From positions 60,525 through 124,524 of the forward strand of contig JAFVFB010000012.1 of assembly GCA_017475705.1 (NCBI GenBank): DNA of 64,000 nucleotides. The letters run 5' to 3'. Within the stretch, counting starts at the first letter, position 1; each line of letters begins with the position of its first letter. The notes under the pieces are model-generated. The model worked only from the letters and a program-made list of their open reading frames with translations, was not told the DNA's origin and ran no database searches. Position numbers and translations under genes: made by a program. Below, one piece after another: positions 30,245-46,046 of this stretch. Source of the stretch: Alphaproteobacteria bacterium (GTDB taxonomy: Bacteria > Pseudomonadota > Alphaproteobacteria > RF32 > CAG-239).

Positions 30245-31372
30245 ATGGCAGATACAGAATTAGATAATTTCTTTTCAGCAGATTCGCAAACAAAAAAATC
30301 AACCACAGCAAAAAGTACTAAGCAAGAAGAAACCAATGATGACGATGGCTTTGATTTAGAAGATGAATTTTCCAAATTATTAAACGACTTTATTAACCAA
30401 GAAAATACCGCTCCTGTGCTACAAGATAAGTCAGATTCGGTATCAAATAGCCTGGATTCTCTGCAAACACCACAATGCCCTTTGGAATCAATGGTCACAG
30501 CTACACCAGTAGAAGAAACCTCAGCTTTAGATGATTTTGCCCAAACAGCACCAAACAATCAACAAGAAACGATGCTGGATGGTTTTGTTACAGAAAATAC
30601 CGCTGTTCAGACTGGAGCAGAACTAGATACTTTTATAACCAATGAACCTGCATCCTCAGAAATCAACGAAACAGATGGGCATTCAGGTCTAAAGCCGGAA
30701 GAACAAGAATTGGCACGTTCTTTGACCAACTTTCAAGATAGTATTTCCGCAATGGCAAACAAAAAGAACCTTAAATTGCCTAAAACAGACTATGAAGAAA
30801 CGATGTTAATGCCAAACTACAAACCGAGCGTAGGTAAAAAAATTGCTCAATATCTTTTAGACTGCTGGCCAATTATAAACAAATATGACCCTGATAATAT
30901 GAAGCGTCTAGCCCCCACGGCAACAGATGAGGAATATCTTTCTTTTGCAGAAAGCTTAAACGATACCTACATGCAGTTAGCCATAATTTCTTATGTGGAA
31001 ATCTTGATAAACATGGAAATATGCGAAGTTAGCTATGAACAGAAAAAAGCGGAAGTGCTAAAAAATCGTGCTAAAAGAGAGCTTTATGAAGAATATATGG
31101 AACTTCAAGAACGCAAAAAATTGTTTATAGAAAAACTTAAAGAAAAGAATTTTCCCATTGATGCAGAACGGCTGATTAGTAATTATTTTCGAGTCGCTCA
31201 AAAAGATCCAGATGGTTCTTTTGAGGCTCTAACCAAAAATCCTGCAACATTTTCGCCGATTCAAGTTGAAAAAATTCACCCAAAATTCTTTGGCTTAATA
31301 AAAGTAACACCTGAAGACGGAATAAAAGCAAACCAAAAAATAGGAAAGTTTATTAAAAATCTAAAAGTATAA
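30245..31372 (+). CDS. hypothetical protein with acidic disordered N-terminal half and helical C-terminal domain
   Basis: 375 aa. Strong RBS (AGGAGG). The first ~170 aa are D/E/S/T/Q-rich with no TM. First gene of the T4CP cluster. Confidence 0.5.
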   Translation: MADTELDNFFSADSQTKKSTTAKSTKQEETNDDDGFDLEDEFSKLLNDFINQENTAPVLQDKSDSVSNSLDSLQTPQCPLESMVTATPVEETSALDDFAQTAPNNQQETMLDGFVTENTAVQTGAELDTFITNEPASSEINETDGHSGLKPEEQELARSLTNFQDSISAMANKKNLKLPKTDYEETMLMPNYKPSVGKKIAQYLLDCWPIINKYDPDNMKRLAPTATDEEYLSFAESLNDTYMQLAIISYVEILINMEICEVSYEQKKAEVLKNRAKRELYEEYMELQERKKLFIEKLKEKNFPIDAERLISNYFRVAQKDPDGSFEALTKNPATFSPIQVEKIHPKFFGLIKVTPEDGIKANQKIGKFIKNLKV

Positions 31373-31461: not shown

Positions 31462-33594
31462 ATGGCATGGTATGATGAAGATGCCCTCAAAAAAAGAAAA
31501 GATTTATATGAGGTACTAGAGATAGATATCAAAAATTGTGCTCGTGAAGAATATGCTAAAGAGGAAATAGAAAAACAATACCAAAAATTAAAAGTAAAAC
31601 ATAAACAAGACAGTGATGATTTGAAAGAACTTGAAGGTGCCTACAAGATATTAAGTGATGATGTTAAGCGTTCAGTTTATAATCAGATGCATAATATTAA
31701 ATTCGGCTTAGATGCTGTAAATCAAGAATTAAAAAATGATATAAATGATTTTCTTGGTAAGCCTGTTTATGATACAGGCACTCAAAAAAAACAAACAACA
31801 GATTCAAATAGTGCAGAAAATACACCGCCAAAAACTTCTCAACAAGATGAACAGGGTGCGAATAAACAACAAAAAACCCAAAGAGAGAATACCTCTCCCA
31901 ATATTGAAGAGTTCACACAGTCTTTTGACGGAGAATCAAAGGCTTATAAAGATATAGAGCTGGATATCTATGGTAATGTAAAAGAAAAAAAGAAAAAAAG
32001 TCAAAGTGCCGGTGGTAAAATTAAAGCACCGGAGCGCAAGCCTTCTAAAGGTGGCGGTGGTGGTGGTAAAACCATTATGGAAGTTTTCTGGAACGAAATT
32101 ATCGTTGCCGCTTATGAAAAGAGCTTAGATTTAGCTGTAGACTTCACATTAGATTTTGCAGATTGGGTTTTATTTAATGCTTATGACCCGCAAACTGTGC
32201 AAAAAGAAGAAGCCCAAAAGGAAAAGAAAAGTATTTGGGACTATGCGCGTGACGTTTACAAAAAATATAGCAAAGATGCAGACGGTAGCATGGAAATATT
32301 CCAAAAAGCTCATACTGAATTAATGAAAAACATAGAACTGGCAAAAAATGGCATAGCCCCGAAATGGAAAGTTTGGCCGAACGAGAAAGAGCCATCGTTC
32401 TTTAAACAAGTCGTAGAAATTGCTAAAAAAGCAGAGGAAGATCCCCATTCCCCGGAAGCGAAAAAATGGGAACGTTTTTGTTCAATGCCGGAAATTATGG
32501 AAAATTTATATGAAAAAGAGCTGCAATTAAGGAAAATGTCTATTTTCTTAGCTACAGAAGAAACACAGCTAAAAATTGCCGCATATAAACATCCATCAGA
32601 AATAACGTACAGGCTAAAAGAAATGAAAGAATTAAAGTTAGGTCCTGAAAAGAACTATGAACTGTACCAAAAAAATATGCAGCGTTTAATCACGGAATTA
32701 AGAGATAAAATCAAAGAGGATACTTCTGTAAATCGCCAGATTGGTGCCCAATTAGATGAGATGGAAAAATTAGTAAATAACAAGGATATTAAGAAAGAGT
32801 TCAATAATATCACATCTGGATTGTCCGCACACATTAAAGCAATCGGCAACATTACACCTGAGTTTACTCTATCACCCTCCATTCTAAAAAATTTAAAAGA
32901 AATAGATAAAATAGGAGGCTCAACCTCTAATATCGATAAATATAAAAAAGCAGTGAGTGCTAAGGTGATTGAAATTCAAAGCTTAGCTAAGGGTAATCAG
33001 CCTATAGATAAAGAAATAAACAAACAATTAGCAGAGATAGAAAAAGCCCTCAAAAATCCTAAAGCAACAGTAGAAGATTTAGTAAAAATAGTTGGCAAAA
33101 CAACAGCTTCAATGCGTGAAATTACGCCTCTTCGCCAAGAAATAGATGAATCAAGCCAAGCTTATTATGATCGCATGCGCAAAAATATCGATAAAATTAA
33201 AGTTATCTATGGTAGAGACCCGGAACAATGCCGTGAAAACATTAAGCAATATCTTAAAAATATTACCGAGAATATTAAGCAAGCTCAACCAGAAATAGAT
33301 AATTTTGCTCATGCCAGCCATTTAAAACGTGCGTTGATAAATACAGGGCATGCTGCATATAATTCTGTTAAAGGGCTAATGGGTAAAAAAGATCCAATAG
33401 CTGCAGATGCTATTATGGATAGGATGGAACAAAAGGCCTCAGATGGTTTCAAAAAAGCAAATTCTATAATCGATGATTTTGAAATAAATGGACGGAGATT
33501 AAGAGACTATGCTGTTGCGACCGAGACACCAAATCCATTTAAGAATAAGCAAAGCGTATTTAATGCATATAAAGATTATTCAGGGGGCCGTTAA
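31462..33594 (+). CDS. large helical protein with N-terminal degenerate J-like domain (HPD replaced by KQD)
   Basis: 710 aa. Residues ~14-75 align to the DnaJ J-domain (DLYEVLEI...EIEKQYQKLKVKHKQD...AYKILSDDVKRSVYNQ), but the HPD tripeptide is absent. Followed by a Q/K/T-rich linker and a G6 run. Confidence 0.5.
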   Translation: MAWYDEDALKKRKDLYEVLEIDIKNCAREEYAKEEIEKQYQKLKVKHKQDSDDLKELEGAYKILSDDVKRSVYNQMHNIKFGLDAVNQELKNDINDFLGKPVYDTGTQKKQTTDSNSAENTPPKTSQQDEQGANKQQKTQRENTSPNIEEFTQSFDGESKAYKDIELDIYGNVKEKKKKSQSAGGKIKAPERKPSKGGGGGGKTIMEVFWNEIIVAAYEKSLDLAVDFTLDFADWVLFNAYDPQTVQKEEAQKEKKSIWDYARDVYKKYSKDADGSMEIFQKAHTELMKNIELAKNGIAPKWKVWPNEKEPSFFKQVVEIAKKAEEDPHSPEAKKWERFCSMPEIMENLYEKELQLRKMSIFLATEETQLKIAAYKHPSEITYRLKEMKELKLGPEKNYELYQKNMQRLITELRDKIKEDTSVNRQIGAQLDEMEKLVNNKDIKKEFNNITSGLSAHIKAIGNITPEFTLSPSILKNLKEIDKIGGSTSNIDKYKKAVSAKVIEIQSLAKGNQPIDKEINKQLAEIEKALKNPKATVEDLVKIVGKTTASMREITPLRQEIDESSQAYYDRMRKNIDKIKVIYGRDPEQCRENIKQYLKNITENIKQAQPEIDNFAHASHLKRALINTGHAAYNSVKGLMGKKDPIAADAIMDRMEQKASDGFKKANSIIDDFEINGRRLRDYAVATETPNPFKNKQSVFNAYKDYSGGR

Positions 33595-33597
33595 AAT

Positions 33598-34089
33598 ATG
33601 AAAAAACTTAAAAACTTTTTCCGCTTTTGCACAATAAGCACCATAACATTGGTGCTTTTAACCATTGTAGCCAGATTTATTTTTCGCATGATATGGCATT
33701 TTGATATCTTAGATAAACACTCATATCAGCTAATGGCAGAATACTGGAATAGTGGCGGCATCTTTAATTCCTTACAAGATTATAGTCTCGGTTTAATGTT
33801 TCTGTCTTTGCCGATTATCTGGCTCTGGATAAGTTATAAAACATATAGATTTGGTTTGATGAGATTATTATCTCTTCCAATTACAAAGATATATCGGTAT
33901 TTAACGCGGCCGGAAACCTATGATGTGGAACACGTGAAAATAAAAAATCTGCGCGGCAAAGAAAAAAATATAGAGGAACTCATCGCTGAAAAGATAAAAG
34001 AAGAAAACCCTAATAGTGGCGCGGCTCATACCGTAAAAAATTTGCGAGCACAAATTTCTGCAAGAATAGGAGAAAATAAAAAACAATAA
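33598..34089 (+). CDS. small membrane protein, paralog of the N-terminal module of the next gene
   Basis: 163 aa with 2-3 TM. Shares the motif WHFDIL...YWNSGG...SLP.IWLW with the N-terminus of the 34145 ORF. Confidence 0.45.
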   Translation: MKKLKNFFRFCTISTITLVLLTIVARFIFRMIWHFDILDKHSYQLMAEYWNSGGIFNSLQDYSLGLMFLSLPIIWLWISYKTYRFGLMRLLSLPITKIYRYLTRPETYDVEHVKIKNLRGKEKNIEELIAEKIKEENPNSGAAHTVKNLRAQISARIGENKKQ

Positions 34090-34107
34090 TCACTTTTTAA
34101 CCAATCA

Positions 34108-34124
34108 TTATCTACAATAGATAA
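34108..34124. promoter_or_regulatory. perfect 7-3-7 palindrome TTATCTACAATAGATAA, candidate operator upstream of the 34145 gene
   Basis: Read directly from the sequence, in the 55-nt intergenic spacer. Confidence 0.3.
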
Positions 34125-34144
34125 TAAGAAAGTCGGAGAATAAC

Positions 34145-35437
34145 TTGAAACCATTGCTAATTATATTAAAAACTCTGATAATAGGCTATCTCTGGAGCAT
34201 CGTCTTCATAGATGGTATCAGGGTTTTGTTGTTAGTAAATTGGCATTTTGATATTTTTTTAAGAGAGCATTGGCGTTTATTAAGTGATAAATGGAATAGC
34301 GGAGCTCCGATTAGCCGCTCAGAGTTTGCATTTTTTCTAATCCTTGTTAGTTCAATACCATTATGGGTAGCCGGCTGGATAGGCTTGTGTTTAATAAAAT
34401 GGGATAGATTTTTCAAAAAGCTATTTATGTGGCCAGTGTATTTATACAAGAAATTAACATTGAAGAAAAAGCCGCCGATCGTAATAAAGAAAAAATCTGT
34501 CACAGAAGAAACAAAAACAACCTCCAAAGCCAGTGTGGCTAAAAAAGTGCCTGTCAAAAAGGTGGGTTTACCTTCAGCAACCTTAATGCAATCAAATGTT
34601 AACAACAATATGTCATCATCAATGCGGCCAACCTCAAATTATATAGCAGCAAGCAAGAAGAATCCAGAAGCACCAACGACGCATGCTTTATTTAATTTTG
34701 ATGACGATGATTTTGATTTGGATTTTGACTTAGATAAAAAAACACCTGAAAAAGAAGATTATGGCATTCCCTCTGCGCTAAAAGTAGACGAACCACAACC
34801 CAAAGAAAAAGCTAAAGATTCAGCAGATAGTATCATTTCAAATTTTGACACCAATTTCTTAGAGAACAAGCCTAAAAACAATAATCACAAAGACAACCAG
34901 TCAAAGCCGAAATCCACACCGGCTCCAGCAAGAGAATCTCACACGCCGATTTTAGATATCCTAAAACAAAAAGGGTATGACATCATTCCATCTGCAGTTA
35001 TTAAAAATACTACCATTGACTATATCGCTGTGTCCAAGCAACAACTGATCCTATGTCTGGTAGATAAAGAAATTGGCGACTGGTTAGCAGACGAGGAGAA
35101 ATTTAATGATGAAGAGCCACTATGGTTTTCAGAAAGTAGCCATAGAATATCTCCAGTACGCAAAATAGATGTTGCAAGAGATATTTTACGTACTAAGCTT
35201 ATTGCTGCAGATATGAATTTTGAAATTGTTTCTTATGTCATCATACAATCAGGCAACATCATTAACGCTGAAGATATGTTTGAAATATGGAGTGAGATGA
35301 ATATTAATGTAACCAGAATTAATCGCGGCAGCCCTAAAGAAATTCGCTTATTTTCTAAATCATTAGAAAATTGTGAAGATAAAATAGATAAAAACATATT
35401 TGAAAAACTTAAAAAACTAATTCGTAGTTTGGCGTAA
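34145..35437 (+). CDS. membrane-anchored protein: shared 2-TM N-module, K-rich disordered linker, C-terminal NERD/restriction-endonuclease-like domain (tentative)
   Basis: 430 aa. N-terminus NWHFDIFL...KWNSGAP...SIPLWVAGW is paralogous to the preceding ORF. The C-terminal ~180 aa (IDYIAVSKQQLILCLVDKEIGDW) resembles a NERD-type core. Confidence 0.45.
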   Translation: MKPLLIILKTLIIGYLWSIVFIDGIRVLLLVNWHFDIFLREHWRLLSDKWNSGAPISRSEFAFFLILVSSIPLWVAGWIGLCLIKWDRFFKKLFMWPVYLYKKLTLKKKPPIVIKKKSVTEETKTTSKASVAKKVPVKKVGLPSATLMQSNVNNNMSSSMRPTSNYIAASKKNPEAPTTHALFNFDDDDFDLDFDLDKKTPEKEDYGIPSALKVDEPQPKEKAKDSADSIISNFDTNFLENKPKNNNHKDNQSKPKSTPAPARESHTPILDILKQKGYDIIPSAVIKNTTIDYIAVSKQQLILCLVDKEIGDWLADEEKFNDEEPLWFSESSHRISPVRKIDVARDILRTKLIAADMNFEIVSYVIIQSGNIINAEDMFEIWSEMNINVTRINRGSPKEIRLFSKSLENCEDKIDKNIFEKLKKLIRSLA

Positions 35438-37629
35438 TTATTTAATAGAGGAATAAATGGTAAGAGAAAGAGGGAAAGAGTGGGAAGAATATGATAAAGC
35501 CGTCCGGTGGATGGCTACCACGTTTATCATATCTGTCGTGGTCGCAATGGTGCTGGTTTATTTGTCTCAGCCTATAGCCTATCTGGTGCAAAAAGGTGTA
35601 TCCAAAGAAAACGTTGATGTTGCAGTAAGATTTCTGAAAAAATCACTGGCAGATCCCGGATTTTTATATGATAGATATATAAGATGGTTCAAGCAAGCAA
35701 TGCGTTACAGTGGAGCTTTTAAGCCCAGCTTATGGATACCGATATTGCCATTTATAATGTTTCCACTGATATTAATTATTGGAGGCATTAAGTGTCCATA
35801 TAAATTCCAGTCCAATATTCATGGTTCTGCACATATCGCTACTTTAAGAGATATCGAAAAGATGGAACTGCTTGGCTTCGATGGATTTTGCATGGTTGTT
35901 GGCAAGTTCCAAGGTAAGATGTTGAAATTAAAAGAAACATTATCAACACTATGCTGTGCACCTCCTGGTACAGGTAAAACAGTAGGTATTGTTATTCCAA
36001 CAATTTTTAATTCTGAAGGTCTGAGTATCATTGTAAACGACCCAAAACCCGAGTTATGCTACAAAACTACGGGAGCAAGAAATAAAGTTGGTCCGGTATT
36101 TGTTATAAACTGGGGGAAAGAAGATAATCCAGAAACTGGTGAATACTATCCAAGCTGGAACCCACTTTCACCAGGGGCCTTGCCAATGCCTGGTCCAGCG
36201 CGAGATTTGTACGTAGATTCAATGTGTAATACGCTGGTAGAAGATCCCAAGGGTAATGCTGACCCGCACTGGTCAAAAACAGGTCGTAGTGCGTTGTGCG
36301 GTTTCATACATTTTATATCTTCAAAATGCGAGAGAGCTCTTGCTAATGAAAAGTTTATCCAAAAAATTTATGAAGGTTCACTAACAGCAGAAGACAAAGC
36401 AGAATTAATTAATTACTATAGTGACATGAGCATGGGTGGCCTGCGTACAAATGCCGCTCAAGCTATTTCAGATATACAAAATGATAATCTGACTATAGAA
36501 AATTATTTACCGATAGGGACATGGAATCTTCTACCGGAAAAATGGATAAATCATGAACCGTGTATGGCTATGATATTGGAATGGATAACCAGTTCACAAA
36601 TAGAGCAGGCTAATGATATTCGCCGCCGACTGGAAGAAGGTGACCAAATGGCTGCAATGGCAGACCCAATGCGAGATTTGCTAGATGCAGCAGTAGAAGA
36701 GGCGAACAATTATGGTTATTCCCGCCGCTGTGTAACGGAGCTAAGTGCCTTAAGTGCAATGCCGGATAAAGAGCGCGGTTCTGTTTTATCAACAGGTTTA
36801 ACCGGTATTGGTATATTTAAGAACTCAGCCGTCGTTGCCCGAACAAGCTTTTCTGATATCCAATTTAAAGATTTGCGAGGGATGAAAGACCCTGTCACTG
36901 GTGAATGGCGGCCAATTTCCGTATATCTTTCTGTAAATCAAACAGATGCGCAAGCCTTAAATCCTATCAGCGCAACATTCGTAGACTTGATGAGTGCTTA
37001 TTTAATTTCTAATCCACCTAATGCGGTTAATAAATCAGATGGCAAAATGGGGCCATTTCCAGTACTATTTGTGCTCGACGAGTTTCCGCAAATGCCAAAA
37101 TTAAAAGCGGTTATAGACGGTCCTGCTGTTGGTCGTGGTCAAAAGGTTGCATATTTATTGATAGGACAAGATTTAGGGCAAATTTCTGGGAAATACGGTA
37201 AGGATGACCTCGAAACAGTTATCTCAACCACGGCCTGCAAAGTTATCTTATCACAAAACAATGAACAAACCGCACAGCGTTTTTCAAAGATGATTGGTAA
37301 TAAAACAGTACAAACCACATCTTTTTCACGCAGTGAAGGAGGTATAAGCAACAAAGACTTTAATCCATTTTCTAAAAATGTAAGTTACCAATTGCAAGGT
37401 GTCTCAGCCATTAGTACCAATGACCTATTGAGTCTACCGATGCTTAAGCAAGTTGTTTTAATGCAAGGCTACATTGATACACCGATTATGGCAGATTCAC
37501 CTCGTTGGTATCTTGATAAAAAGATGAGAGAGCTGGCATCATTACCTCCATCGCCAAATGTTCCGGACTGGATTGTTGCTCAAAGAACAGATGAAAATGA
37601 AGATATACTGTCCAAACTTGGAATAGATT

Positions 37630-40564
<2,935 letters not shown>

Positions 40565-41287: not shown

Positions 41288-41582
41288 ACTTTACTTTTCT
41301 TATTTTTATTTATAGAGTAAAAGCGGACAGGGTGTTCTTGTCTGGGGTGTGGAAACCTCTTCAAGGAAATAGAAGGAACGTATGATTGTCCGTCTCACAG
41401 TTGTGTTTATTTAAATACATGACTGGAAGGCGACAAAATACGCCGCTTTGAGACTCATATATAACTGCAGATGTATATGCCGTTTAGGCTAATATGTCGC
41501 ACAATCCTTGAATTGTTTCCAACTTCCAGTCGCTTTATAGCGACTTTTTCTTTGACTTAGGAGCTAAAAAAGGAAGTTGATT

Positions 41583-44500
41583 ATGAAGAAACAAAAGAAC
41601 AAGCAAGCTAAAAAAGCATCAAAATTGGCAAAGGCCGAGAACTTAAAGAAAAAACCAGCACAATTTATTACGGTTAAAAATGCCGAGGGTGATCCCGATA
41701 CAACCGCCGAAATCCTCATTCAAAACCAAATCGATTATACGCCGAAAGTATCGGTGATTATTCCAGTTTATAATGTGGAACAATACCTGCGCGAATGCTT
41801 GGATAGTGTTGTTAACCAAACATTGAAAGAGATAGAAATCATCTGCGTGGACGATGGCTCAACCGATTCTTCATTGGAAATCCTCAAAGAATACGCCGCA
41901 AAAGACAAGCGTATGACAGTTATCCGCCAGCAAAATCTCCATGCCGGTGTCGCCCGCAATGCCGGTCTATCACAAGCAAAAGGAGAATACCTCAGCTTCC
42001 TCGATTCCGACGACTTCTTCGAACTCAATATGCTAGAGGAGATTTATGACAAATCTAAGCAAAATGATGACGATATTTTTATTTATAATTATGATTTTTA
42101 TGACAATGACAAGAACTTATACAAAGAATCATATAAATATAATTCAAGGTATTTGCAACAAGAGGGGTTTTCTGCAAAAGATTATCCGAAAAATATCTAT
42201 TTTTTAGCGACACCAAATGCATGGACAAAGCTCTTCAAAAGAACCTTAATTGTAACCAACAGTATTTACTTTGAAAATTGCCCAAGTTGCAACGATATTA
42301 CTTTTGTAGATACGGCTCTTTCTGTTGCGGAAAGGATAAACGTATCAAACAATGTATATGTACATTACAGAATAAATTCAGGTATAAATATATCAAACAA
42401 CAGAGAAGTAAAAGCTTTTTCAATCATTCATGCGATGAAAAAACTAAAGTCAAATCTTGAAAGACTAAAAGTGTATAAAATATTTCGAGATAATTTTGAA
42501 AAGCAGTTAGTTGTTCGTGCAAAATCGGAGATTTTAAAAGCTGATACAGTTTTTAAAACAAAATTCTTAGCAGAATTTAAAAATATTTTTGCTGATGATT
42601 TATACAATGAACTTCTGAAAGAATTAGAGGTAAAAGTCTCAATCATTATTCCAATTTATAATGCTGAAAAATATTTACGTGAATGCTTGGATAGTGTTGT
42701 CAATCAAACTTTAAAAAATATTGAAATTATTTGTGTCAATGATTGTTCTACTGATGGTTCATTAGAAATTATAAAAGAATATGCCAGTAAAGATGGGCGT
42801 ATCATAATTGTCAATAATGATAAAAATACCGGAGCTCCAGGTGCGGTAAAAAATATTGGTATGCAGCATGCCTCAGGTGTATATATTGGTATTGTCGACT
42901 CTGATGATTATATTGATTTAAACTATTTTGAAGAGTTGTATAATGTTGCAGTAAAAAACAATGCTGATATTTCATCTATATCTAGTATTATTAAATTTTC
43001 AGGAAAAAAACAAACACCTATTATACTTGATACAAAAGGGAAAACAATACTTAGCAACCCAAAAGACAAAACCCCACTAATGAGAATATCTAGCACAAAT
43101 TCTGCACGAATATACAGAAGGGAACTACTGGAAAAATACCATCTTAGATGCTATGATAAATTTTCAACAGCAGAAGACAACTTATTTTCGATGGAAGTTA
43201 TGAGTGTGGCTAATAAAATAGCGATGGTGCCAAATATAACTTACCATTATAGGCAACGTGAAGGGAGTGTCACCGGACGAAAGAGAACCAAAGAACATTT
43301 TAATATTTTTGATATTTACCTAATGATAGATAAATTCATATCTAAAACCTTTAGCGGAGAAGAAAAAAACTTATATTTAACAGCTGTTAACGAACGGAAA
43401 AAGTTAGATTTTAAATGGTTTTTAAATTCTTTAGATATCAACTATTTACAAGAATTTAAGGAAAAACTATTAAATGTATTTCCTTTGGTATACAAACACT
43501 TGTTCTTAAATGAAATACCTATAATTTTAGCATCTGATGATAACTATGCGCCATTTATGTACACAACAATGGTATCAATTTTAGAAAATGCAAAAGAAAC
43601 AACTTATTATGACTTTTATCTTATGGTTCCATCTGCATTTTCTAAAAACAACGAAAAAACAATTTTGACCCTAAAAGATAAATACAATTGCGATATTCAA
43701 TTTTTGGATATGAAAGATGCTTTCTCGGACTTGACTATGCAAATATCGCATATTACATCGCCAACTTATTACCGTTTGCTTGCAGGAGATTTATTGCCTA
43801 AAGAATATGATAAATGTATTTATCTGGATGTTGATATCTGTGTTTGCCAAGATTTGAGCGAACTTTATAATATTGACATGGGTAATAATTATATTGCCGG
43901 AGTTGTTGCAGCAGGTTATTATTTTTCTGAAGCGGCAAACTGTAAACGATTAAATCTGCCATCAATGCGAACATATGTTAATGCCGGTGTTTTGCTGATG
44001 AATTTAAAACAAATTCGTCAAGACAGGATGACAGAGAAGTTTGTTGAATTATCTAAGAAAAATTACTCATCTCAAGACCAAGATGTTGTAAATATTGCGT
44101 GTTATGGCAAAATTATAACATTGCCACCTAAATACAATGCGATGACTACGAGGCTACAGCAAAATGACGCGCGTTTAAGAGATTTATATTCAGAAGAAGA
44201 TATTTGGAAAGCAAATAAACATCCATATATTATTCACTATGCAGATAAAAATAAACCATGGAATAGTAGCTTTGTCTATATGGAACAATACTGGTGGAAT
44301 ATTGCAAGAAAAACTCCATATATTGATTTATTTAAAATAGATGCATCATTTTATAAAACTCAGCTAGAGCAATGGTGGTATAGAGCGAAGAAAACTTCAT
44401 TAAACCTAGATAATCCTAAAACTTTTAATGAAAAAATTCAATGGATGAAACTATATGATTCGACACCGCTTAAAACGCGTTTAGCAGATAAATATCTGGT

Positions 44501-46046
44501 GCGTGACTGGGTAAAGGAAAAAATCGGTGAGGAATTTTTGATTCCGCTGTTAGGTGTTTATGATAGGTTTGAAGATATTGATTTTGACAAGCTTCCAAAT
44601 CAGTTTGTCATCAAATGCAATCATGGTAGTGCTTACAATATTATTGTTAAGGATAAATCAAAGCTGGATTTAGTAGATGCAAAAGCAAAACTTGATAAGT
44701 GGATGAATGAAGACTTTGCTTTTAAGTCGGTAGAACTTCATTATCGTGACATAGAACATAAAATCATTATTGAAAAGTATATGGATGATGGAACTGGGGA
44801 TTTAAGAGATTACAAATATACTTGCTTTAATGGAAAACCAGAGTTTATTTGGATAGACAGCGATAGACATACTAAACACAAACGTAATTTATATGACTTA
44901 AACTGGAAACAATTACCATATAAAGTTAATTCGCATTATGACACATTTCCATCACCAGATAAACCAGAACGCTTAGATGAAATGACACAACTTGCTAAGA
45001 TATTAAGCGAAGGATTTTCTTATGTTCGTGTTGATTTCTACATAATAAATGGGAAAATTTATTTCGGAGAAATGACATTTACATCGTCTAGTGGAACTGA
45101 AGATATTGTTCCTGAAAGTTTTGATAGGTATTTAGCTAAAAAGATTAAACTTCCCAAACTCGCCTACAATATTGATACCGGTGAGTATTATAAATTGCCG
45201 AAACCAAGTAAACTCGCCCCATATCTCTTCTTCCCGTATTATCTGTTCAAGGTGGCGCAGATGCGTAAGAAGGTGTTTGCGTTAACAACAGATAAAATAT
45301 TATCTGAATTTACCAAGATGCGGATAGATATTAAAAATAGCGGCACTGCTAAAAATGCTTTGTCTATCACGGCACCAAAAGCAAATATTGATACCCCAGC
45401 TTGGTTTACAAATGCAAGGGGTATCGGACAGATGGTGCAAGGCAATAACCTCAAACAAACCATAAAAATCAAAGCAATTAATGATGGAAAATTAATCTTT
45501 GATTTCCGCGGGCAAGATAAAAGAGATAAAGAAAATCAACGCATTCCGCTATGGTGCGACTATCAGTCTATTAAAATTGATGGCAAAAAGATTAATGATA
45601 AAAAAGAGCAAACATGGCACGATAAACCTTATCACTATGAAATGCCCGTAAAAGATGGGCAAGAGGTTAAAGTTGAAATCGAACAAACCTATCATCGCTA
45701 TATGGAAGGTGATCTTCGCGATACAATATTAGAGCTGTTTCCTAGTGACAAATACATTACCGAAAATATTGATAAATTAACCGCGAAAATCTTTCATTTT
45801 ATAGAATCTAAAGCATCTGCTAAAACATTAAAGCAAAAACTTACAAAAAAAGAGGCGAGCCTAAAGCTATTTAAGGTTTTGCCGATTGCCAGTTTTCGGC
45901 ATAGCGGTGGCAAAAAAGTTTGGAAGATTTTTGGCCTGCCAGTGTTCAAAAAGCGCATGACAAATAATGGAAACACCACAAAATACTACATACTAGGCAT
46001 AAATTTGCTGCAATTAAATAAAAAGACAACCGATGTCTTGCGTTAG
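41583..46046 (+). CDS. multidomain glycosyltransferase: GT2 + GT2 + GT8 + TupA-like ATP-grasp + unknown C-terminal domain
   Basis: About 1487 aa from the ATG 7 nt after the RBS AGGAAG. Two GT-A modules (VIIPVYN..DGSTD..DSDD), a GT8 module (DVDICV, HYADKNKPWN), a TupA-like ATP-grasp module (KCNHGS...) and a ~280 aa C-terminal domain. Confidence 0.8.
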   Translation: MKKQKNKQAKKASKLAKAENLKKKPAQFITVKNAEGDPDTTAEILIQNQIDYTPKVSVIIPVYNVEQYLRECLDSVVNQTLKEIEIICVDDGSTDSSLEILKEYAAKDKRMTVIRQQNLHAGVARNAGLSQAKGEYLSFLDSDDFFELNMLEEIYDKSKQNDDDIFIYNYDFYDNDKNLYKESYKYNSRYLQQEGFSAKDYPKNIYFLATPNAWTKLFKRTLIVTNSIYFENCPSCNDITFVDTALSVAERINVSNNVYVHYRINSGINISNNREVKAFSIIHAMKKLKSNLERLKVYKIFRDNFEKQLVVRAKSEILKADTVFKTKFLAEFKNIFADDLYNELLKELEVKVSIIIPIYNAEKYLRECLDSVVNQTLKNIEIICVNDCSTDGSLEIIKEYASKDGRIIIVNNDKNTGAPGAVKNIGMQHASGVYIGIVDSDDYIDLNYFEELYNVAVKNNADISSISSIIKFSGKKQTPIILDTKGKTILSNPKDKTPLMRISSTNSARIYRRELLEKYHLRCYDKFSTAEDNLFSMEVMSVANKIAMVPNITYHYRQREGSVTGRKRTKEHFNIFDIYLMIDKFISKTFSGEEKNLYLTAVNERKKLDFKWFLNSLDINYLQEFKEKLLNVFPLVYKHLFLNEIPIILASDDNYAPFMYTTMVSILENAKETTYYDFYLMVPSAFSKNNEKTILTLKDKYNCDIQFLDMKDAFSDLTMQISHITSPTYYRLLAGDLLPKEYDKCIYLDVDICVCQDLSELYNIDMGNNYIAGVVAAGYYFSEAANCKRLNLPSMRTYVNAGVLLMNLKQIRQDRMTEKFVELSKKNYSSQDQDVVNIACYGKIITLPPKYNAMTTRLQQNDARLRDLYSEEDIWKANKHPYIIHYADKNKPWNSSFVYMEQYWWNIARKTPYIDLFKIDASFYKTQLEQWWYRAKKTSLNLDNPKTFNEKIQWMKLYDSTPLKTRLADKYLVRDWVKEKIGEEFLIPLLGVYDRFEDIDFDKLPNQFVIKCNHGSAYNIIVKDKSKLDLVDAKAKLDKWMNEDFAFKSVELHYRDIEHKIIIEKYMDDGTGDLRDYKYTCFNGKPEFIWIDSDRHTKHKRNLYDLNWKQLPYKVNSHYDTFPSPDKPERLDEMTQLAKILSEGFSYVRVDFYIINGKIYFGEMTFTSSSGTEDIVPESFDRYLAKKIKLPKLAYNIDTGEYYKLPKPSKLAPYLFFPYYLFKVAQMRKKVFALTTDKILSEFTKMRIDIKNSGTAKNALSITAPKANIDTPAWFTNARGIGQMVQGNNLKQTIKIKAINDGKLIFDFRGQDKRDKENQRIPLWCDYQSIKIDGKKINDKKEQTWHDKPYHYEMPVKDGQEVKVEIEQTYHRYMEGDLRDTILELFPSDKYITENIDKLTAKIFHFIESKASAKTLKQKLTKKEASLKLFKVLPIASFRHSGGKKVWKIFGLPVFKKRMTNNGNTTKYYILGINLLQLNKKTTDVLR

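What the first reader, a model, noticed from the sequence alone, without database searches (positions are those of the whole stretch)
33598..35437. Tandem paralogs sharing a two-TM 'WHFDI...WNSG' N-terminal module with different C-termini, one with a putative nuclease-like domain
ORF 33598-34089 and the N-terminus of ORF 34145-35437 align convincingly: MIWHFDILDKHSYQLMAEYWNSGGIFNS...SLPIIWLW versus NWHFDIFLREHWRLLSDKWNSGAPISRS...SIPLWVAGW. So one membrane-anchoring module is used twice with divergent payloads.

The longer paralog adds a K-rich disordered linker and an acidic DFDLDFDLD stretch. Its C-terminal ~180 aa domain has a core (IDYIAVSKQQLILCLVDKEIGDW) reminiscent of NERD/PD-(D/E)xK-like nuclease folds.

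Modular N-terminal anchor plus variable C-terminal domain is the architecture of polymorphic effector, toxin or immunity families.
Basis: seen in the sequence. Interest (0 to 1): 0.6.

Follow-up and report, generated by a model that had tools for sequence, protein, structure and literature searches.

The report
Paralogous membrane partners of a coupling ATPase
Two neighbouring genes are real, ancient paralogues that share a two-helix membrane anchor. They sit directly upstream of a type IV secretion coupling ATPase in uncultured gut Alphaproteobacteria. The longer one carries a divergent nuclease-fold domain, so they look like uncharacterised accessory subunits of that ATPase, not polymorphic toxins.

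Summary
ORF A (33598-34089, 163 aa) and ORF B (34145-35437, 430 aa) share a homologous ~105-residue N-terminal two-helix membrane module (BLASTP E 8e-7; hhalign 94 %, E 1e-7).

B's C-terminal domain folds confidently (pLDDT 83, then >=95). Its only structural neighbours are restriction-endonuclease-like (PD-(D/E)xK) proteins, all weak. Pfam NERD is borderline. The canonical site reads D292...D307-K-E309, with no lysine, and is only partly conserved. The invariant residues lie in a loop signature, W-x-A-D-E...P-x-W-x-S...S-P...N...W.

The polymorphic toxin/immunity reading fails. In 1.84 billion representatives the module occurs in only 156 proteins and essentially two fixed architectures. Both genes are single-copy and syntenic in 84 loci.

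B lies immediately upstream of a VirD4/TraG-type coupling protein in four different flanking contexts. In one related clade the cluster also sits beside three VirB6-like genes. A is the truncated descendant of a second full-length B-like paralogue.

Best reading: A and B are inner-membrane accessory subunits of the coupling protein, and the nuclease-fold domain acts as a cytoplasmic receptor or processing module. Function is inferred. The family is undescribed. Interest is moderate.

The parts
30245..31372 (+). ORF1, 375 aa. It has an acidic disordered N-terminus and a conserved C-terminal ~130 aa (…NFPIDAERLISNYF…FIKNLKV). It is the first gene of the operon.
   Evidence: There is no Pfam, NCBIfam or PDB match. 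The C-terminus is conserved in every related cluster with enough 5' flank, including the distant L087, L090, L093 and L094.
31462..33594 (+). ORF2, 710 aa, lysine- and glutamate-rich and probably coiled-coil. It has a weak J-domain-like N-terminus without an HPD motif. Its length varies between relatives and it diverges quickly.
   Evidence: Pfam DnaJ gives E 0.0018, which is below the cut-off. Identity in clade 1 is 24-43 %. The gene is not detectable by tblastn in clade 2.
33598..34089 (+). ORF A, 163 aa. It has the N-terminal two-helix membrane module (aa 1-105, nt 33598-33912) and a short charged cytoplasmic tail. It is a truncated paralogue of B.
   Evidence: The A family is conserved, with invariant W33, F35, W50, G53 and P72. 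The best outgroup match is the full-length B-like paralogue (B') that occupies the same position in L094 (E 3e-6, A 14-163 against B' 15-162).
34145..34462 (+). ORF B, N-terminal membrane module (aa 1-106). It contains TM helix 3-33, a loop helix 40-52 carrying W33-H-F-D…W43…W50-N-S-G53, TM helix 58-83, and a juxtamembrane helix 86-105.
   Evidence: The AlphaFold model has pLDDT 92-98 here. W33, F35 and W43 are invariant in 38 diverse members, and W50 and G53 are >=90 % conserved.
34463..34930 (+). ORF B, disordered cytoplasmic linker (aa 107-262). It begins with a basic KKKPPIVIKKKS stretch just after the membrane. It contains the conserved LPSATLMQSN motif and the acidic-aromatic motif HALFNFDDDDFDLDFDLD (aa 180-197, nt 34682-34735). 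The remainder is a variable K/N/P-rich spacer.
   Evidence: pLDDT is below 50 for most of 122-240 (segments listed). The core residues of the acidic motif are invariant in 24 homologues, and the motif recurs in more distant clades as HSLFNLDDDDDFELDFD and similar. The spacer shows no detectable conservation.
34931..35437 (+). ORF B, C-terminal globular domain (aa 263-430) with a restriction-endonuclease-like (NERD-like) alpha/beta fold. The canonical-position residues are D292, D307 and E309. The family signature loop is W313-L-A-D-E…P325-L-W327-F-S…S336-P337 (nt 35081-35155), together with G370, N374 and W382.
   Evidence: The two models give pLDDT 83 with pTM 0.79, and then >=95 for this domain. 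The Foldseek PDB results are, and the Pfam NERD results. Residue conservation across 42 representatives is.
35457..37679 (+). Type IV coupling protein (VirD4/TraG family), 740 aa, with two N-terminal TM helices, Walker A motif GTGKT and an acidic C-terminal tail. It starts 19 nt after the B stop codon.
   Evidence: Pfam T4SS-DNA_transf gives 1e-54, TraG-D_C 1e-22 and TrwB_AAD_bind 3e-19. NCBIfam matches VirD4/TraG models. Identity is 64-90 % in 84 loci and 57-60 % in L087, L092, L093 and L094.
37630..38448 (+). ORF6, 272 aa, a multi-spanning membrane protein that overlaps the end of the coupling-protein gene. It is present only in clade 1 and is the last gene before the convergent ligA.
   Evidence: There is no family match. 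It is found in clade-1 loci only.

Best explanation
A and B are vertically inherited paralogues. They descend from an old tandem duplication (B'-B) that lies immediately upstream of a chromosomal VirD4/TraG-type coupling ATPase.

Both are inner-membrane hairpin proteins. Each has a short basic N-terminus in the cytoplasm and two TM helices flanking a conserved ~25-residue periplasmic helix (WHFD…W…WNSG). The C-terminus is cytoplasmic, following the positive-inside rule, because KKKPPIVIKKK comes directly after TM2.

B continues with a long disordered tether that carries a conserved acidic-aromatic motif. It ends in a divergent NERD/PD-(D/E)xK-fold domain. A is B' after loss of that domain.

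The most likely mechanism has three parts. First, the shared membrane module lets A and B assemble with each other and with the N-terminal transmembrane domain of the coupling protein. Second, the tethered nuclease-fold domain of B sits under the membrane beside the ATPase. Third, that domain acts as a receptor or processing module for whatever the coupling protein feeds to a type IV secretion channel. Functionally this resembles the accessory subunits of other coupling complexes.

Shown here: the paralogy, the fold class, the domain conservation and the persistent B-T4CP gene pairing. Inferred: the topology, the physical interaction, the substrate, and whether the domain cuts nucleic acid.
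For: Paralogy is shown.

Only two architectures exist in 1.84e9 representatives.

The gene order is operon-like. The ORF2-A gap is 3 nt, the A-B gap 55 nt, the B-T4CP gap 19 nt, and the T4CP gene overlaps ORF6. No + strand terminator-like site occurs before 38097.

The order ORF1-(ORF2)-A-B-T4CP is conserved in 84 loci from two clades of uncultured gut Alphaproteobacteria.

B directly precedes the T4CP in four different flanking contexts:
- rluD…ligA
- rluD…other genes
- next to three divergent TrbL/VirB6-like genes (L087, L093, L094)
- FadL-like…proS (L092)

In the organism of L092 the signature-bearing copy stays with the T4CP, and a degenerate paralogue sits elsewhere in L085.

The Bc domain (83 % and 67 % median identity in the two clades) and the T4CP (64-90 %) are under strong constraint, comparable to RpoH.

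Against: - No interaction was tested.
- In L090 the ORF1-x-B'-B block after rluD is not followed by a T4CP.
- B-like paralogues occur alone in housekeeping contexts in L085 and L089.
- No other T4SS gene lies in the 64-kb window, so it is not shown that this organism has a secretion channel.
- The structural matches are weak, with best Foldseek E of 7e-3 and TM-scores of 0.3-0.4.
Confidence: 0.5

Rival explanations
1. B is a catalytically active, membrane-tethered nuclease. It would nick or process DNA for the adjacent coupling ATPase, as a relaxase-like or DNA-release/uptake function in a locus with no conventional relaxase. A would act as a regulatory or scaffolding paralogue.
For: The fold is PD-(D/E)xK and the domain has NERD affinity.

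An all-acidic set sits at the canonical positions. Among 38 signature-bearing members, D292 is present in 33 and D307 is D or E in 32. E309 is E or D in 23 and K in 3. D316, E317 and N374 are additionally invariant.

MOBC relaxases are restriction-endonuclease-like and use a D-E-E metal site without lysine (stated in PMC6736028, citing Francia et al. 2013).

No relaxase gene is visible near the T4CP.
Against: - The canonical lysine is absent, and the third site residue is variable.
- Pfam matches nothing other than weak NERD.
- The chromosomal position is fixed between housekeeping genes in every species. There are no mobile-element hallmarks, which argues against conjugative DNA processing.
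- The model coordinates could not be read, so clustering of the acidic residues is unverified.
Confidence: 0.2
2. A and B are housekeeping envelope proteins unrelated to type IV secretion. On this view their adjacency to the T4CP in this clade is inherited gene order without functional coupling.
For: - B-like genes occur without a neighbouring T4CP after the atp operon (L085), between ymdB and secG (L089), and after rluD in L090.
- The window is otherwise ordinary chromosome.
Against: The unlinked copies in L085 and L089 have a diverged signature loop (NEWIADE and SWMADE instead of GDWLADE). L085 is a second copy in an organism whose GDWLADE-bearing copy (L092) abuts the T4CP. B-T4CP adjacency survives four different rearranged contexts, with gaps of 10-130 nt.
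Confidence: 0.15
3. One membrane-anchoring module is recombined with variable C-terminal payloads, as in polymorphic toxin, effector or immunity families, with B as a nuclease toxin.
For: A shared N-terminal module with different C-termini is seen in the two window genes. One of them has a nuclease-like fold.
Against: - Only two architectures exist in 156 representatives.
- The C-terminal domain is among the best conserved parts of the protein, at 83 % and 67 % identity, not hypervariable.
- The genes are single-copy with constant synteny in 84 loci.
- No immunity-like cassette, trafficking domain or defence-system match was found.
- The cytoplasmic orientation inferred from the positive-inside rule is wrong for an exported toxin.
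Confidence: 0.03

Closest known systems
NERD domain family (Pfam PF08378), a branch of the PD-(D/E)xK restriction-endonuclease-like superfamily
   Same: The secondary-structure core is alpha-beta-beta-beta-(insert)-alpha-beta. HMM matches are weak but recurrent and cover nearly the whole 111-position profile without large gaps. An aspartate lies on strand 2 and an acidic residue at the end of strand 3. A Ser-Pro precedes the second core helix.
   Different: The window protein scores below the Pfam cut-off (16.5 against 22.1 bits). The (D/E)xK lysine is replaced, giving D307-K-E309. The family-defining invariant residues lie in a 25-residue beta-meander insert, W-x-A-D-E…P-x-W-x-S…S-P. The domain is tethered to a dedicated two-helix membrane module and is genetically paired with a T4SS coupling protein.
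DotM (IcmP) of the Legionella Dot/Icm type IVB coupling complex
   Same: Both are inner-membrane proteins with N-terminal TM helices and a cytoplasmic C-terminal domain. DotM works as an accessory subunit and substrate-recruiting platform of the coupling ATPase DotL (PMC5802825). That it is encoded next to dotL is from my own knowledge of the icm gene order.
   Different: The DotM cytoplasmic domain is all alpha-helical with no structural homologues (PMC5802825), whereas B is alpha/beta with a PD-(D/E)xK fold. No sequence or Foldseek match to DotM was found. The T4CP here matches VirD4/TraG models.
MOBC relaxases (pAD1 TraX type), restriction-endonuclease-like DNA-processing enzymes of conjugation
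   Same: Both have a PD-(D/E)xK-related fold with an all-acidic metal site (D-E-E) lacking the lysine (PMC6736028). Both have a functional connection to a coupling protein.
   Different: MOBC relaxases are soluble and plasmid- or ICE-borne, and they act at an oriT. B is membrane-anchored and chromosomal, sits in fixed synteny, shows no detectable sequence homology to any relaxase family in Pfam, and has only a partly conserved site.
Polymorphic toxin / effector families with a constant N-terminal module
   Same: The only resemblance is superficial: two adjacent genes share an N-terminal module but differ in their C-termini.
   Different: There is no C-terminal diversity beyond presence or absence of one conserved domain. 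There are no immunity genes, no trafficking domains and no strain variability.

Membership tests
NERD (PF08378) | Match to the family HMM above the curated gathering score | tested here: inconclusive
   The window protein gives 16.5 bits and E 0.013, against a cut-off of 22.1. Homologue P0081 gives 24.8 bits. Five of 38 diverse family members match at E<=0.01, the best at 2.9e-5.
NERD (PF08378) | Restriction-endonuclease-like alpha-beta-beta-beta-alpha-beta core fold | tested here: met
   The AlphaFold models are confident (pLDDT 83, then >=95 for the domain). All credible Foldseek PDB neighbours are PD-(D/E)xK proteins, although weak, with E 7e-3 to 0.3.
NERD (PF08378) | Canonical catalytic motif D…(D/E)-x-K | tested here: not met
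   The site is D292…D307-K308-E309. A lysine occupies the third position in only 3 of 38 members, and E309 varies. The register against the NERD profile is inferred from near-gapless match coordinates, not from a printed alignment.
Type IV coupling protein, VirD4/TraG/TrwB (the neighbouring gene 35457-37679) | T4SS-DNA_transf / TraG-D_C / TrwB_AAD_bind domains, a Walker A motif and an N-terminal TM anchor | tested here: met
   Scores are 186.5, 80.6 and 69.5 bits, all far above the cut-offs. GTGKT is present in the translation. NCBIfam scores stay below the equivalog cut-offs and phmmer finds no PDB hit, so this is a divergent member.
Polymorphic toxin / effector-immunity systems | One N-terminal module fused to many unrelated C-terminal domains | tested here: not met
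   The 156 representatives fall into two architectures. Of 58 long proteins, 48 share the same C-terminal domain. The rest are truncated or chimeric calls.
Polymorphic toxin / effector-immunity systems | Strain-variable cassettes with cognate immunity genes and known trafficking or toxin domains | tested here: not met
   Synteny is constant in 84 loci. No Pfam or PADLOC toxin, immunity or trafficking match was found.
DotM/IcmP-like coupling-complex subunit | Gene adjacent to the coupling ATPase; N-terminal TM helices plus a cytoplasmic domain | tested here: met
   The gap to the T4CP is 19 nt. Adjacency holds in four contexts. The TM hairpin is predicted at pLDDT 92-98.
DotM/IcmP-like coupling-complex subunit | Homology to DotM (all-alpha cytoplasmic domain) | tested here: not met
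   B has an alpha/beta fold. No DotM chain appears among the listed top-50 Foldseek PDB hits, and there is no Pfam match. DotM is all alpha-helical (PMC5802825).
DotM/IcmP-like coupling-complex subunit | Physical complex with the coupling ATPase | not testable with these tools
   This needs multimer prediction or biochemistry.
MOBC-type (restriction-endonuclease-like) relaxase | Site-specific nicking at an oriT with an acidic D-E-E metal site | not tested
   Only the fold class and a partly conserved acidic set are seen. No oriT or mobile-element context is present.

The most novel reading that the evidence does not exclude
The B family is a previously unrecognised class of coupling-protein partner. 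It would be a membrane-tethered, lysine-less PD-(D/E)xK enzyme that replaces a conventional relaxase or DNA-processing factor. Together with its truncated paralogue A it would form a new kind of type IV coupling complex. That complex would be a core, vertically inherited trait of a whole order of uncultured gut Alphaproteobacteria.
Probability: 0.12. Interest if true: 0.7.

Novelty: new variant of a known kind. Interest (0 to 1): 0.42.

Why it matters
Coupling proteins decide what a type IV secretion system exports, and their accessory subunits are known for only a few model systems. Here an uncharacterised, name-less protein family stays welded to a divergent chromosomal coupling ATPase across several hundred species of uncultured, animal-gut Alphaproteobacteria. 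There is no Pfam model for the membrane module, and every source that names a member calls it hypothetical. The ATPase is as conserved as RpoH.

If B is a genuine subunit, it adds a nuclease-fold receptor to the repertoire of coupling complexes. It also gives an entry point to the biology of a poorly understood gut lineage, in particular what that lineage secretes or transfers. If the fold is catalytically active, it would link PD-(D/E)xK chemistry to a non-mobile T4SS. Even so, this is an incremental addition to known themes, not a new principle.

Tried and rejected
- **More module copies in the window:** none found (tblastn).
- **Family searches for A, B, ORF1, ORF2 and ORF6:** Pfam, NCBIfam and PADLOC gave nothing significant except weak NERD for B.
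- **Sequence search of PDB:** the diverse B profile returned only low-complexity noise from the linker. The T4CP and ORF1 have no PDB relatives by phmmer.
- **Model coordinates:** they are not exposed, so I could not test whether D292, D307, E309, D316, E317 and N374 form one pocket.
- **Literature:** searches for NERD with type IV secretion, and for RF32 with type IV secretion, found nothing relevant.
- **Other T4SS genes in the window:** none among the 40 ORFs scanned. I could not establish whether the window organism has a channel elsewhere. VirB6-like genes are adjacent only in a related clade.
- **Rejected, polymorphic toxin or immunity:** reasons are given under the rival explanations.
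- **Rejected, DotM homology:** the fold differs.
- **Rejected, A as a gene-calling artefact or pseudogene:** its family is conserved at full length in all clade-1 and clade-2 loci.
Full report
**1. Observation**

ORF A (33598-34089, ATG, 163 aa) and ORF B (34145-35437, TTG with a GGAG 6 nt upstream, 430 aa) are intact + strand ORFs. BLASTP aligns A 26-78 with B 26-79 at 31 % identity and E 8e-7. I built family alignments for A (12 sequences) and B (24 sequences). hhalign matches A 1-104 to B 1-106 with 94 % probability and E 1e-7. The homology therefore spans both hydrophobic helices, the loop between them (W33-H/N-F35-D…W/Y43…W50-N/E-S-G53) and the juxtamembrane segment (P-x-x-x-I/L-Y-R/K). 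No third copy lies in the window. The K-rich linker, the acidic DDDDFDLDFDLD stretch and a ~170-aa C-terminal domain are all present as described.

**2. Anatomy of B**

AlphaFold was run with a diverse 38-sequence alignment. It predicts:
- helices 3-33, 40-52, 58-83 and 86-105 at pLDDT 92-98;
- a disordered region from about 110 to 265;
- a compact C-terminal domain at pLDDT >=95, built as helix 268-275, strands 279-286, 289-296 and 300-307, a beta-meander 312-335, helix 337-354, strand 360-367, helix 375-384, strand 387-391 and two terminal helices.

A first model of the domain alone gave pLDDT 83 and pTM 0.79.

The N-terminus has K2 and K9, and the strongly basic KKLTLKKKPPIVIKKKS follows TM2. 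By the positive-inside rule this predicts an N-in/C-in hairpin. The conserved WHFD…WNSG helix would then face the periplasm and everything after residue ~85 would be cytoplasmic. This topology is an inference.

**3. The C-terminal domain**

Foldseek against PDB returns only weak hits, with best E of 7e-3 and TM-scores of 0.3-0.4. The credible hits are all restriction-endonuclease-like proteins: AF1548 (1Y88), NucS/EndoMS, the R2 retrotransposon endonuclease domain, Nt.BspD6I, RPA0323, Card1/Cdn1, Hjc, LmuA and FokI. No T4SS protein appears.

Pfam NERD matches nearly end to end but weakly:
- the window protein gives 16.5 bits, below the 22.1 cut-off;
- homologue P0081 gives 24.8 bits;
- 5 of 38 diverse members match at E<=0.01.

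The canonical site is atypical. It reads D292 on strand 2 and D307-K308-E309 at the end of strand 3, so there is no catalytic lysine. Among 38 members that carry the family signature:
- D292 is kept in 33;
- D307 is D or E in 32;
- position 309 is E or D in 23 and K in only 3.

The strictly invariant residues (38 of 38) are W313, A315, D316, E317, W327, S336, P337, N374 and W382. Most lie in the meander inserted between strand 3 and the second core helix. Whether the acidic residues form one metal site could not be checked, because model coordinates are not exposed. All-acidic variants of this fold can be active: BamHI is an example from established knowledge, and the D-E-E site of MOBC relaxases is described in PMC6736028. 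Catalysis is therefore neither shown nor excluded.

**4. Is the module polymorphic?**

A profile of the shared module (23 sequences from both families) was scored against all 1.84e9 cluster representatives. Only 156 proteins reach E<=1e-3. They fall into a short class of about 160 aa and a long class of 340-580 aa.

- Of 58 proteins of at least 200 aa, 48 contain the same C-terminal domain.
- The remaining ten are mostly truncated, frameshifted or chimeric gene calls that still show the B-type acidic motif. One (P0279) may be a genuine alternative.
- None of the 92 short proteins has the domain.

This is a two-member paralogous family, not a module shuffled among payloads. The C-terminal domain is also the best conserved part of B. 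Median identity is 83 % and 67 % in the two clades, against 73 % and 43 % for the membrane module, and the spacer shows none. PADLOC gives nothing.

**5. Genomic context**

The window is ordinary low-GC (~35 %) chromosome carrying lpxC, recN-like, RND efflux, rpoH, rluD, ligA, infC, fbaA, glgP, bamA and others. Between rluD and ligA lie six co-oriented genes with tiny gaps and no + strand terminator-like site before 38097:
- ORF1 (375 aa);
- ORF2 (710 aa, degenerate J-like N-terminus);
- A;
- B;
- a 740-aa VirD4/TraG-type coupling protein (Pfam T4SS-DNA_transf 1e-54, TraG-D_C, TrwB_AAD_bind, Walker A GTGKT);
- ORF6 (272 aa, multi-TM).

B has relatives in 378 species-level genomes. The 80 best, plus four loci fetched earlier, are all uncultured Alphaproteobacteria MAGs. 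Where the isolate names indicate a source, it is gut or rumen. Their titles include CAG:495 and "Acetobacter/Azospirillum sp." MAGs, which from my own knowledge belong to the GTDB order RF32. Every locus with enough flank keeps rpoH-rluD | ORF1-(ORF2)-A-B-T4CP. T4CP identity is 64-90 %, comparable to RpoH at 68-91 %.

**6. Deeper relatives**

In L087, L093 and L094 (GC 44-52 %) the cluster reads ORF1-like, a K-rich protein, B' (a full-length B-like paralogue with a degenerate domain), B (with the WLADEERFNDEEPLW signature), T4CP (57-60 % identical) and two further genes. It is divergently adjacent to three tandem TrbL/VirB6-like genes. The window's A aligns best with B' of L094 (E 3e-6 over A 14-163). 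A is therefore B' after loss of its C-terminal domain.

In another organism the signature-bearing B abuts a T4CP (59 % identical) in a completely different neighbourhood, FadL-like…proS (L092). Its degenerate paralogue sits after the atp operon (L085). B-T4CP adjacency thus survives four independent flanking contexts, which argues for functional coupling and not just inherited order.

There are counter-examples. L090 keeps rluD | ORF1-x-B'-B but is followed by unrelated genes. L089 has a lone divergent copy between ymdB and secG.

**7. Interpretation**

The best-supported model is that A and B are inner-membrane accessory subunits of the coupling ATPase. The shared hairpin would mediate assembly in the membrane, with each other and with the T4CP transmembrane domain. 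The flexible, charged tether would place B's nuclease-fold domain beside the ATPase as a receptor or processing module.

The closest functional analogue is DotM of the Legionella coupling complex, but B is not homologous to it. DotM is all alpha-helical (PMC5802825), and no DotM chain appears in the listed fold-search hits. I put this model at about 0.5.

The main rival, at about 0.2, is that B is an active lysine-less nuclease that processes DNA for the T4CP, reminiscent of restriction-endonuclease-like MOBC relaxases. The fixed chromosomal synteny and the variable third site residue weigh against a conjugative role. A T4CP-independent housekeeping role gets about 0.15. The polymorphic toxin idea gets about 0.03.

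**8. Novelty and verdict**

The membrane module has no Pfam or NCBIfam model. Every source that names a member calls it hypothetical. I found no literature linking NERD-like domains to coupling proteins. The components do belong to known kinds: a PD-(D/E)xK/NERD fold, a VirD4-type T4CP and T4CP accessory proteins.

I rate it a new variant of a known kind, of moderate interest at 0.42. The fold guess is right at superfamily level.

Noticed in passing
window 35457-37679: The coupling protein is a chromosomal, apparently orphan T4CP. No other T4SS gene was found among the 40 window ORFs scanned. It is as conserved across species (64-90 %) as RpoH. phmmer finds no PDB relative, and the Pfam and NCBIfam best stretches fall in residues ~390-716. 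Whether these genomes encode a channel at all is open.
   Followed up: partly
L087 1853-7433 (- strand); L093 10001-14649; L094 10001-15681: Three tandem TrbL/VirB6-like paralogues are divergently adjacent to the ORF1-x-B'-B-T4CP operon in a related, higher-GC clade. From memory, this multiplication of VirB6 resembles that in Rickettsiales rvh systems. In L087 and L093 a double HTH_3 regulator and a large protein (>1200 aa) with no domain hits follow them.
   Followed up: partly
window 30245-31372 (ORF1): The C-terminal ~130 aa of ORF1 is conserved in every T4CP-associated cluster examined, including L090, which lacks the T4CP. It has no family or PDB match. It may be another dedicated component of the same system.
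   Followed up: partly
window 31462-33594 (ORF2): ORF2 is a 710-aa charged, probably coiled-coil protein with a sub-threshold J-domain match at residues 14-74 (E 0.0018) but no HPD tripeptide. Its length varies from about 480 to 710 aa between close relatives, and it is unrecognisable in clade 2.
   Followed up: no
window 34682-34735 (B aa 180-197): The acidic-aromatic linear motif H-A-L-F-N-F-D-D-D-D-F-D-L-D-F-D lies in an otherwise disordered linker. Its core residues are invariant within the clade, and it recurs in diverged form in more distant B proteins. It is absent from the L087-type B. It looks like a docking peptide for an unknown basic surface. The T4CP itself ends in an acidic tail (…[11 protein letters not shown]).
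   Followed up: partly
L090 9394-10431: The B orthologue in L090 carries a homopolymeric K run and homopolymeric D runs (each well over ten residues) in the linker, in place of the mixed basic and acidic motifs. This exaggerates the same charge pattern. In this locus no T4CP follows B.
   Followed up: no
window 41577-46046: This is a 1489-aa multidomain protein that combines two GT2 glycosyltransferase modules, a GT8 domain and a TupA-like ATP-grasp domain. Such a fusion is unusually large.
   Followed up: no
window 37630-38448 (ORF6): This multi-TM ORF overlaps the last 50 nt of the T4CP gene. It is present only in clade 1. Clade 2 and the distant clusters carry different genes downstream of the T4CP.
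   Followed up: no
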